Below are positions 3,098 to 3,195 of a DNA stretch of 64,000 bases, piece by piece (the stretch's first letter is position 1; each line of letters starts with the position of its first letter). The position numbers and the translations under genes are program-made. Source of the DNA: Rhynchobatus australiae (taxonomy: Eukaryota); NCBI GenBank assembly GCA_034780895.1, contig JAUZTB010000027.1, positions 44,217,689 to 44,281,688 of the forward strand, read 5' to 3'. The notes below the pieces were generated by a model. It saw only the letters and a list, made by a program, of their open reading frames with translations. It did not search any database and had not been told where the DNA came from.

Positions 3098-3195
3098 CTA
3101 TTTTTTCTTAGTTCGACACCAAATCACGAGACAGAGCATTAGCATTAGAAGCATCAATCCAGCTACCGTACGACCAGGCTCCAAGGTAGAAGAAC
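3098..3195 (-). CDS. Gene A transmembrane exon with Arg and terminal stop
   Basis: [35 protein letters not shown] sits one base before a retained gtaag donor. The 99-nt exon frame matches the gene D TM exon. Confidence 0.8.

What the first reader, a model, noticed from the sequence alone, without database searches (positions are those of the whole stretch)
3098..3195. Gene A: Gly-to-Arg at the TM start plus a stop before a still-intact donor, a possible inhibitory-to-activating conversion
Seen: the 99-nt TM exon aligns with gene D's, but GGT(G) is CGT(R) in PGRTVAGL versus VGGTVSGL, and TAG lies one base before the retained gtaag donor. Known: an Arg near the outer TM edge couples NKp30/NKp46, activating LILR and GPVI to FcRgamma/CD3zeta. 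Inference: this is an adaptor-coupled activating partner, though it could be a decoy or an early pseudogene.
Basis: partly seen in the sequence, partly recalled or inferred. Interest (0 to 1): 0.72.

Follow-up and report, generated by a model that had tools for sequence, protein, structure and literature searches.

The report
Tail-less Arg-anchored paired fish immune receptor
This cartilaginous-fish immune-receptor gene has lost the signalling tail that its near-twin 'off-switch' gene still carries and has an arginine at the outer edge of its predicted membrane anchor, so it likely became an 'on-switch' (or else a decoy), a trick well known from mammals.

Summary
In detail: the minus-strand 99-nt exon 3195-3097 reads PGRTVAGL, with TAG one base before a gtaag donor. 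Arg, stop and donor are unchanged in a related species about 10% diverged, so this is no assembly error. Gene A is an open leader-V-C1-TM frame of 261 aa. Its closest paralog is not gene D but an ITIM-tailed twin on other contigs: V exons 93% identical, C1 78%, introns about 70%. The twin has Cys, not Gly, at the Arg codon. Behind A's stop lies a decayed piece of the twin's second tail exon (Tyr and splice sites lost); tail exons 1 and 3 are gone. So A descends from an inhibitory receptor. In 67 database relatives, outer-TM Arg goes with tail loss (22 of 23). But A's Arg sits one residue off the family position, behind a polar flank, without NxxR; no RNA or binding data exist. Odds: activating 0.5, decoy 0.3, pseudogene 0.15. 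Known principle (SIRP, KIR, LILR pairs); the scan noted this family before in two other genomes.

The parts
6520..6574 (-). Gene A leader exon (55 nt, ATG at 6574, GT donor)
   Evidence: 41/55 identical to the twin's leader
6031..6351 (-). Gene A VJ-type V exon (321 nt; 34 letters unread)
   Evidence: 268/287 identical to the twin's V exon, dS 0.058
3925..4236 (-). Gene A C1-set exon (312 nt)
   Evidence: Pfam C1-set E 1e-12; 243/312 identical to twin, dS 0.57, dN/dS 0.32
3097..3195 (-). Gene A transmembrane exon (99 nt) ending in KKK-stop
3170..3172 (-). Arg codon CGT capping an 18-residue apolar run; family column +1 (Cys in the twin, Gly in gene D)
   Evidence: unchanged in organism C
3098..3100 (-). 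TAG stop
3092..3096 (-). Retained splice donor gtaag, one base after the stop
2805..2875 (.). High-copy repeat fragment in the shortened region behind the donor
   Evidence: very high contig depth; hits in 4 other loci
2652..2795 (-). Decayed remnant of the twin's tail exon 2 and the intron before it (exon part about 2719-2652): acceptor AG reads CA, Tyr codon of the VHYAAV motif reads AAT (2696-2694), 1-nt gap, donor absent
   Evidence: 68% over 145 nt, E 2e-15, only other hit among the fetched loci is the twin; score 124.5 against a shuffle maximum of 54.5
2377..2612 (-). Block matching the twin's DNA about 300 nt behind its stop: marks the deletion that removed the rest of tail exon 2 and all of tail exon 3
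   Evidence: first of 5 further collinear blocks down to 132; partly repeat-like
21633..21746 (-). Comparator: gene B TM exon (114 nt, no charge), followed by three tail exons with tyrosine motifs
53536..53634 (-). Comparator: gene D TM exon (99 nt, GC donor)

Best explanation
Gene A is an intact leader-V-C1-transmembrane reading frame that lost the tyrosine-motif tail its twin gene still has, and it likely works as the activating partner of that twin by using its outer-edge arginine to recruit the FcR-gamma or CD3-zeta signalling dimer. Shown: gene anatomy, tail loss by deletion and decay, stop and Arg shared with a related species, V exon far more alike between A and twin than C1 or introns, adaptor TM exons with the Asp present in the genome. 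Inferred: a duplicate of an inhibitory gene lost tail exons 1 and 3 and the Tyr of exon 2, gained a stop that trims the tail to RTKKK and gained the Arg (TGT or GGT to CGT); gene conversion kept its V domain matched to the twin's, so both would bind the same ligand with opposite outcome; with no intact tail exon left the stop would lie in the last exon or 1 nt before the last junction and so escape NMD. Untested: expression, Arg depth in the membrane, adaptor binding, ligand.
For: Single open frame of 261 aa with canonical splice sites. Twin (G000 C4112 + C2058) has three tail exons with VHYAAV, LSYATL, TEYAEL and is A's sister on the C1 tree, 99/79, and in A's clade on the V tree, 100/98. V 268/287 identical, dS 0.058, against C1 243/312, dS 0.57, leader 41/55, introns about 70%; without the shared 77-nt block V is still 191/210. 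Polarised C1 changes on A's branch: 6 non-synonymous, 7 synonymous, omega about 0.26, p 0.017 against neutrality. Tail collapse and stop are shared with organism C; a neutral copy keeps start, frame and splice sites through 5% divergence in 11.5% of 4000 simulations, substitutions only. Family: 23 of 67 database relatives with a TM have Arg in the two outer columns; 22 of 23 lack a tail tyrosine motif and 0 of 23 have a tail of 60 aa, against 14 of 44 and 15 of 44; 9 independent pairs, 7.4 the same way, 0 opposite, p 0.008. A's 18 apolar residues after Arg lie in the family range 12-21. Two CYxLD adaptor TM exons in the genome. FcR-gamma partners use an Arg in the N-terminal TM segment, position 3 in Fc-alpha-RI (PMC1440944, passages).
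Against: A's Arg is at column +1, held by only 2 of 67 relatives (one of them doubtfully aligned); at the family column 0 (21 of 67) A has Gly. The five residues before it (TLEPG, mean hydropathy -0.48) are the most polar of the 24 Arg-type rows, so it may be a mere flank residue. No NxxR motif (E-P-G-R). 14 of 44 non-Arg relatives also lack tail motifs, so tail loss does not need coupling. Organism C's TM exon differs by 5 amino-acid changes and 1 silent codon: no sign of constraint, small numbers. The C1 constraint may date from before the tail loss. Conversion also involves non-functional copies (SIGLEC16P; PMC5701461, listing only). 34 letters of the V exon are unread. Database tails come from automatic annotation.
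Confidence: 0.5

Rival explanations
1. Gene A is expressed as a tail-less, non-signalling receptor (decoy, ligand sink or adhesion molecule, like SIRP-gamma); the Arg is a polar residue at the outer membrane border and recruits nothing.
For: Arg off the family register and behind a polar flank; tail-less members without Arg are common (14 of 44), and the same genome has a TM exon with an in-exon stop before an intact donor and no Arg (L057) whose Pristis relative P0005 ends at the same place. V matching to the twin suits a decoy equally well.
Against: The apolar run behind the Arg has the family length; both database relatives with Arg at column +1 are also short-tailed, weak by itself; FcR-gamma assembly tolerates very different flanks (PMC1440944, passages), although the polyleucine Fc-alpha-RI assembled at only 11%.
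Confidence: 0.3
2. Gene A is a pseudogene: the stop and tail deletions are decay, and the ectodomain exons are intact by luck or by conversion from the twin.
For: No constraint visible in the TM exon between the two organisms; survival of an intact frame under neutrality is 11.5% at 5% and 25% at 3% branch length; the cluster holds many broken exons; TM exon only 57/95 like the twin's.
Against: Damage falls only behind the TM exon, while four exons, the start and six splice sites are intact; C1 changes on A's branch look purified; C1 is too diverged from the twin (dS 0.57) to have been repaired by recent conversion; TM changes in organism C keep the segment apolar.
Confidence: 0.15
3. The stop is an assembly or homopolymer error, or a private variant, and the gene has a normal tail further downstream.
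For: The stop follows an A run and the scaffold has many gaps.
Against: Identical in run X1 and unchanged in three runs of another organism; the tail region is collapsed within gap-free sequence in both organisms; no tail exon found within 20 kb or more downstream.
Confidence: 0.02

Closest known systems
SIRP family (SIRP-alpha inhibitory, SIRP-beta activating, SIRP-gamma tail-less)
   Same: VJ-type V plus C1-set ectodomain; best solved-structure hits of the full-length relative P0002 are human SIRP-alpha (E 9.5e-19) and SIRP-gamma (3.2e-16); inhibitory members carry 3-4 tyrosine motifs; clustered paired genes.
   Different: One C1 domain instead of two; activating members use an outer Arg, whereas SIRP-beta uses a mid-TM Lys with DAP12 (recalled); the SEP-domain marker that flanks human SIRPs (recalled) lies on other scaffolds; CD47 binding untested.
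FcR-gamma-coupled Arg receptors: NKp46, GPVI, activating LILR, Fc-alpha-RI, OSCAR, Xenopus XFL TM1
   Same: Arg in the N-terminal TM segment, short tail without motifs (PMC1440944, PMC6514059, PMC2413239; passages).
   Different: These share a conserved NxxR TM module (PMC2413239, PMC6557307; passages); A has E-P-G-R and its TM exon derives from an inhibitory sibling's exon; ectodomain is V-C1, not C2-type.
NKp30 (NCR3)
   Same: V domain, TM Arg, CD3-zeta/FcR-gamma coupling (PMC6514059, passages).
   Different: NKp30 has a single V domain; A has V plus C1 and an ITIM-tailed twin.
Activating KIR, Ly49, NKG2C, PIR-A, Siglec-14/16 derived from or paired with inhibitory twins
   Same: Birth of an activating form from an inhibitory gene by a TM charge and tail loss (PMC1440944, PMC6557307; passages); homogenisation limited to ligand-binding exons, 'merohomogenization' (PMC3210942, passages).
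   Different: Unrelated gene family, in cartilaginous fish; Arg near the outer edge rather than a central Lys.

Membership tests
Paired activating receptor (FcR-gamma/CD3-zeta type) | Short cytoplasmic tail without tyrosine motifs | tested here: met
   RTKKK-stop; tail exons deleted or decayed
Paired activating receptor (FcR-gamma/CD3-zeta type) | Inhibitory partner with a closely matching ligand-binding domain | tested here: met
   Twin C4112+C2058: V 268/287 identical, three motif-bearing tail exons
Paired activating receptor (FcR-gamma/CD3-zeta type) | [quoted passage not shown] | tested here: inconclusive
   Arg caps an 18-residue apolar run but follows TLEPG, the most polar flank of 24 rows; column +1
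Paired activating receptor (FcR-gamma/CD3-zeta type) | Adaptor genes with the TM Asp in the same genome | tested here: met
   Two PF11628 exons over the cut-off, both CYxLD; which is zeta and which FcR-gamma is my reading from recall
Paired activating receptor (FcR-gamma/CD3-zeta type) | Physical association with the adaptor and ITAM signalling | not testable with these tools
   needs co-expression experiments
Paired activating receptor (FcR-gamma/CD3-zeta type) | Expressed, spliced transcript | not testable with these tools
   only contigs of DNA or unknown runs were on offer
NxxR-type TM module (LILRA, NKp46, GPVI, XFL TM1) | Asn three residues before the Arg | tested here: not met
   E-P-G-R; motif defined in PMC2413239 and PMC6557307 (passages)
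SIRP family | VJ-type V domain followed by C1-set domain(s) | tested here: met
   V-set and C1-set Pfam hits; top PDB hits SIRP-alpha and SIRP-gamma for P0002
SIRP family | V-C1-C1 architecture of SIRP-alpha/beta/gamma (recalled) | tested here: not met
   one C1 exon between V and TM
SIRP family | Conserved synteny with the mammalian SIRP cluster | tested here: inconclusive
   SEP-domain hits on C48 and C135, not C27; opioid-precursor search blank; one marker only
SIRP family | CD47 binding; Lys/DAP12 coupling of the activating member (recalled) | not tested
   no Lys inside A's apolar run; binding not examined
NKp30/NCR3 | Single V domain plus TM Arg | tested here: not met
   A has an intact C1 exon

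The most novel reading that the evidence does not exclude
Gene A is a lineage-specific, independent reinvention of FcR-gamma/CD3-zeta coupling: one base change put an Arg at a second position (the family's Cys column) of an inhibitory receptor's TM exon, the ITIM exons were deleted, and the V exon has since been kept matched to the inhibitory twin by conversion. It would be a fully legible birth of an activating receptor in an apparently undescribed chondrichthyan V-C1 paired family in which Arg-type/ITIM-type sister pairs recur from chimaeras to rays.
Probability: 0.4. Interest if true: 0.62.

Novelty: new member of a known kind. Interest (0 to 1): 0.45.

Why it matters
If true, cartilaginous fish run the same paired-receptor arms race as mammals, with a V-C1 family that sits close to SIRPs and to non-rearranging antigen-receptor relatives. 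Gene A and its twin form a ready test pair: the steps (tail deletion, stop, one-base Arg, V-exon homogenisation) can each be read from the DNA, and A asks directly how far out and how polar an Arg can be and still recruit FcR-gamma. The principle itself is established, so a specialist would be pleased rather than astonished.

Tried and rejected
Expression: no RNA holder listed; the one guessed-RNA run X2 gave a 193-nt exact contig reaching into an intron, uninformative. Complex prediction of A's TM with two copies of the FcR-gamma-like TM exon: no verdict, score 0.04 against a mark of 0.34, controls not folded; no evidence either way. Annotated direct ortholog of A: none among 87 hits of the family profile; a search with a 61-aa V piece found nothing. 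Tail exons downstream: tblastn with 12 full-length relatives over about 184 kb and blastn with B's and D's tail exons found none; only the twin revealed the remnant. Tail exons 1 and 3 of the twin gave no convincing alignment behind A (one 48.0 score against a shuffle maximum of 38 overlaps the exon-2 remnant and is gappy). D as donor of A's TM exon: same 15-nt shortening and a 50-nt post-donor likeness (score 33.5, shuffle maximum 40.5, not significant), but the intron before the exon matches the twin (76.5 against 60) and B, not D; unresolved. The gene B row was in the wrong frame and was ignored. State of organism C's V and C1 exons could not be read: the difference tables were cut. Synteny: inconclusive. 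Two papers on shark B7H6/NKp30 and VJ-C1 genes were not held, so overlap with them is unchecked.

Full report
Observation. The finding lies on the minus strand. The exon runs 3195-3097 (99 nt, phase 1-1) between ttgcag and gtaag and encodes [31 protein letters not shown] followed by TAG (3100-3098) and one more base. Gene D's exon has the same length and GGT where A has CGT. Run X1, possibly the source of the assembly, gives an identical contig. Three runs of organism C (two studies), about 10% diverged over 3036-6071 (303 differences in 3049 letters), span the exon without a gap; of 15 differences the 10 away from the ends are listed and none touches Arg, stop or donor. The seven in the exon give five amino-acid changes and one silent codon. 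The feature is real and older than the split of the two organisms; at this distance its survival is no proof of selection (48% by chance).

The gene. Leader 6574-6520, V 6351-6031, C1 4236-3925 and the TM exon join to one open frame of 261 residues with GT-AG introns; 34 letters of V are unread. C1-set and V-set domains are confirmed by Pfam for A's C1, B's V and the full-length relatives. All named relatives are from sharks, rays and chimaeras, automatically labelled SIRP-like, tapasin-like or B7H6-like; the best solved-structure hits of one full-length relative are human SIRP-alpha and SIRP-gamma. The own genome gives 38 C1 matches, 28 of them below 1e-7, mostly in two clusters on C27.

The twin. 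The nearest C1 paralogs are on the small contigs C2058 and C37815 and are A's sister group (99/79; 75 rows, short alignment). C2058 and C4112 overlap by 77 identical bases and together give a V exon. This twin has an uncharged TM (PGCALAGL) and three tail exons of 44, 102 and 165 nt with VHYAAV, LSYATL and TEYAEL. A and twin agree in 268 of 287 readable V bases (dS 0.058) but in 243 of 312 C1 bases (dS 0.57, dN/dS 0.32), 41 of 55 leader bases and about 70% of flanking intron bases. Leaving out the shared 77 bases, where a short-read assembly could inflate identity, V is 191 of 210. A tenfold lower dS limited to one exon points to gene conversion (inference), the pattern described for KLRC, Ly49 and PIR pairs (PMC3210942, passages). 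Organism C's full-length V contigs differ from A at 29 letters, more than the twin does, so the conversion likely postdates the split and the tail loss; which contig is the ortholog is not certain.

The lost tail. At 2795-2652, 300 nt behind the donor, A matches the twin's second tail exon and the intron before it (68% of 145 nt, E 2e-15; score 124.5, shuffle maximum 54.5). The acceptor reads CA, the Tyr codon reads AAT next to a one-base gap, and the exon's second half and donor are missing. The next block (2612-2377) matches DNA about 300 nt behind the twin's stop, and four more blocks follow in order down to 132 (some are repeat-like). So tail exon 1 and exon 3 were deleted. Organism C has contigs across the same collapsed region. 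This is direct evidence that A came from an inhibitory gene, and it shifts the weight from the stop codon to the deletions. With no intact downstream exon, the stop would be in the terminal exon or 1 nt from the last junction; stops within 50-55 nt of the last junction escape NMD (PMC1854916, listing and start of abstract). One GTRAG site further down (1746) and unread stretches leave some doubt.

The arginine. Of 93 proteins returned, 67 had a callable TM behind the C1 domain; 26 were dropped. In their alignment 21 have Arg at one column (for example LFVWILRC in stingrays, YLWAIRC in a catshark) and 2 at the next column. 22 of these 23 lack a tail tyrosine motif, against 14 of 44 others; after removing 7 isoforms or near-duplicates 18 of 19 against 13 of 41. 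On the C1 tree 9 independent pairs go 7.4 the same way and none opposite (p 0.008); Arg state changes 12 times, by repeated origin or by ectodomain conversion. Three of about 20 other TM-like exons in the fetched own-genome loci have the column-0 Arg (26 rows printed, 5 judged noise by eye). Gene A is atypical: Gly at column 0, Arg at column +1, where most members and the twin have Cys and D, B and P0002 have Gly. TGT-to-CGT is as simple as GGT-to-CGT, and flank comparisons do not settle it. The apolar run behind the Arg is 18 residues (family 12-21), but the five residues before it are the most polar of 24 rows (hydropathy values recalled). FcR-gamma partners need an Arg in the N-terminal TM segment, position 3 in Fc-alpha-RI, and tolerate varied flanks (PMC1440944, abstract and passages); the mammalian and frog receptors share NxxR (PMC2413239, PMC6557307, passages), which A lacks. 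Two adaptor TM exons with CYxLD are in the genome.

Function or decay. On A's branch the polarised C1 changes are 6 non-synonymous to 7 synonymous (p 0.017), on the twin's 10 to 4; part of A's branch predates the tail loss. A neutral copy would stay intact in 11.5% of simulations at 5% branch divergence (substitutions only). Damage is confined to the tail. I put function at about 0.8, and coupling given function at about 0.6.

Comparison and novelty. It works like activating KIR, LILRA, PIR-A or SIRP-beta arising beside an inhibitory twin; it is not an NxxR receptor, not NKp30, and not shown to be a SIRP ortholog. Seven searches of the held library (judged from listings) showed no description of this chondrichthyan family; PMC12227049 (passages) treats other non-rearranging shark VJ genes; PMC6514059 (passages) was used for NKp30 and NKp46; two directly relevant papers were not held, and no supplements were read. 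Two earlier notes of this scan describe Arg-type members of what seems the same family in other genomes; they agree but are not independent support. Verdict: real feature, conversion from an inhibitory ancestor shown, activation plausible but untested; new member of a known kind; interest 0.45.

Noticed in passing
window 54174-53536 (gene D): Only 260 nt separate the V exon from the TM exon, so gene D has no C1 exon: a single-V receptor with a GC donor and tail exons carrying LHYCDV and VTYAQV.
   Followed up: partly
L057:9080-8970 (G000 C27 near 44.034 Mb): Another TM exon with an in-exon stop four codons before an intact gtaag donor, without Arg; the Pristis protein P0005 ends at the same residue.
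   Followed up: partly
L045:2150-2242, L046:7791-7717, L047:3077-3154, L055:8414-8370: Own-genome TM exons with the family's column-0 Arg (three) or Lys (one): better candidates for typical activating members.
   Followed up: no
P0001/P0010/P0011 versus P0002; P0015 versus P0054/P0063; P0077 versus P0023; P0059 versus P0045: Arg-type short-tailed and ITIM-type proteins form sister pairs on the C1 tree in stingrays, skates and chimaera.
   Followed up: partly
P0047, P0052, P0055, P0059, P0062, P0082, P0086: A subgroup of Arg-type TMs ends in an acidic residue (D) 16 residues after the Arg, like the acidic C-end noted for NxxR TMs in PMC6557307.
   Followed up: no
window 5711-5555, 29812-29467, 23435-23226, 22511-22380, 62345-62157, 60641-60534: Broken or partial exon copies: a V fragment inside A's intron, a frameshifted V exon, C1 fragments (one duplicated across a gap) and a TM pseudo-exon.
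   Followed up: no
L075, L076, L002 (contigs C4112, C6660, C37815): A second twin-like V exon (C6660) and C1/TM (C37815) exist; they may be an allele or a third gene of the A subfamily.
   Followed up: partly
L078 (G000 C48 near 17.92 Mb): 55 bases identical to the end of A's leader exon and donor sit beside unread sequence on another scaffold; likely an assembly artefact.
   Followed up: partly
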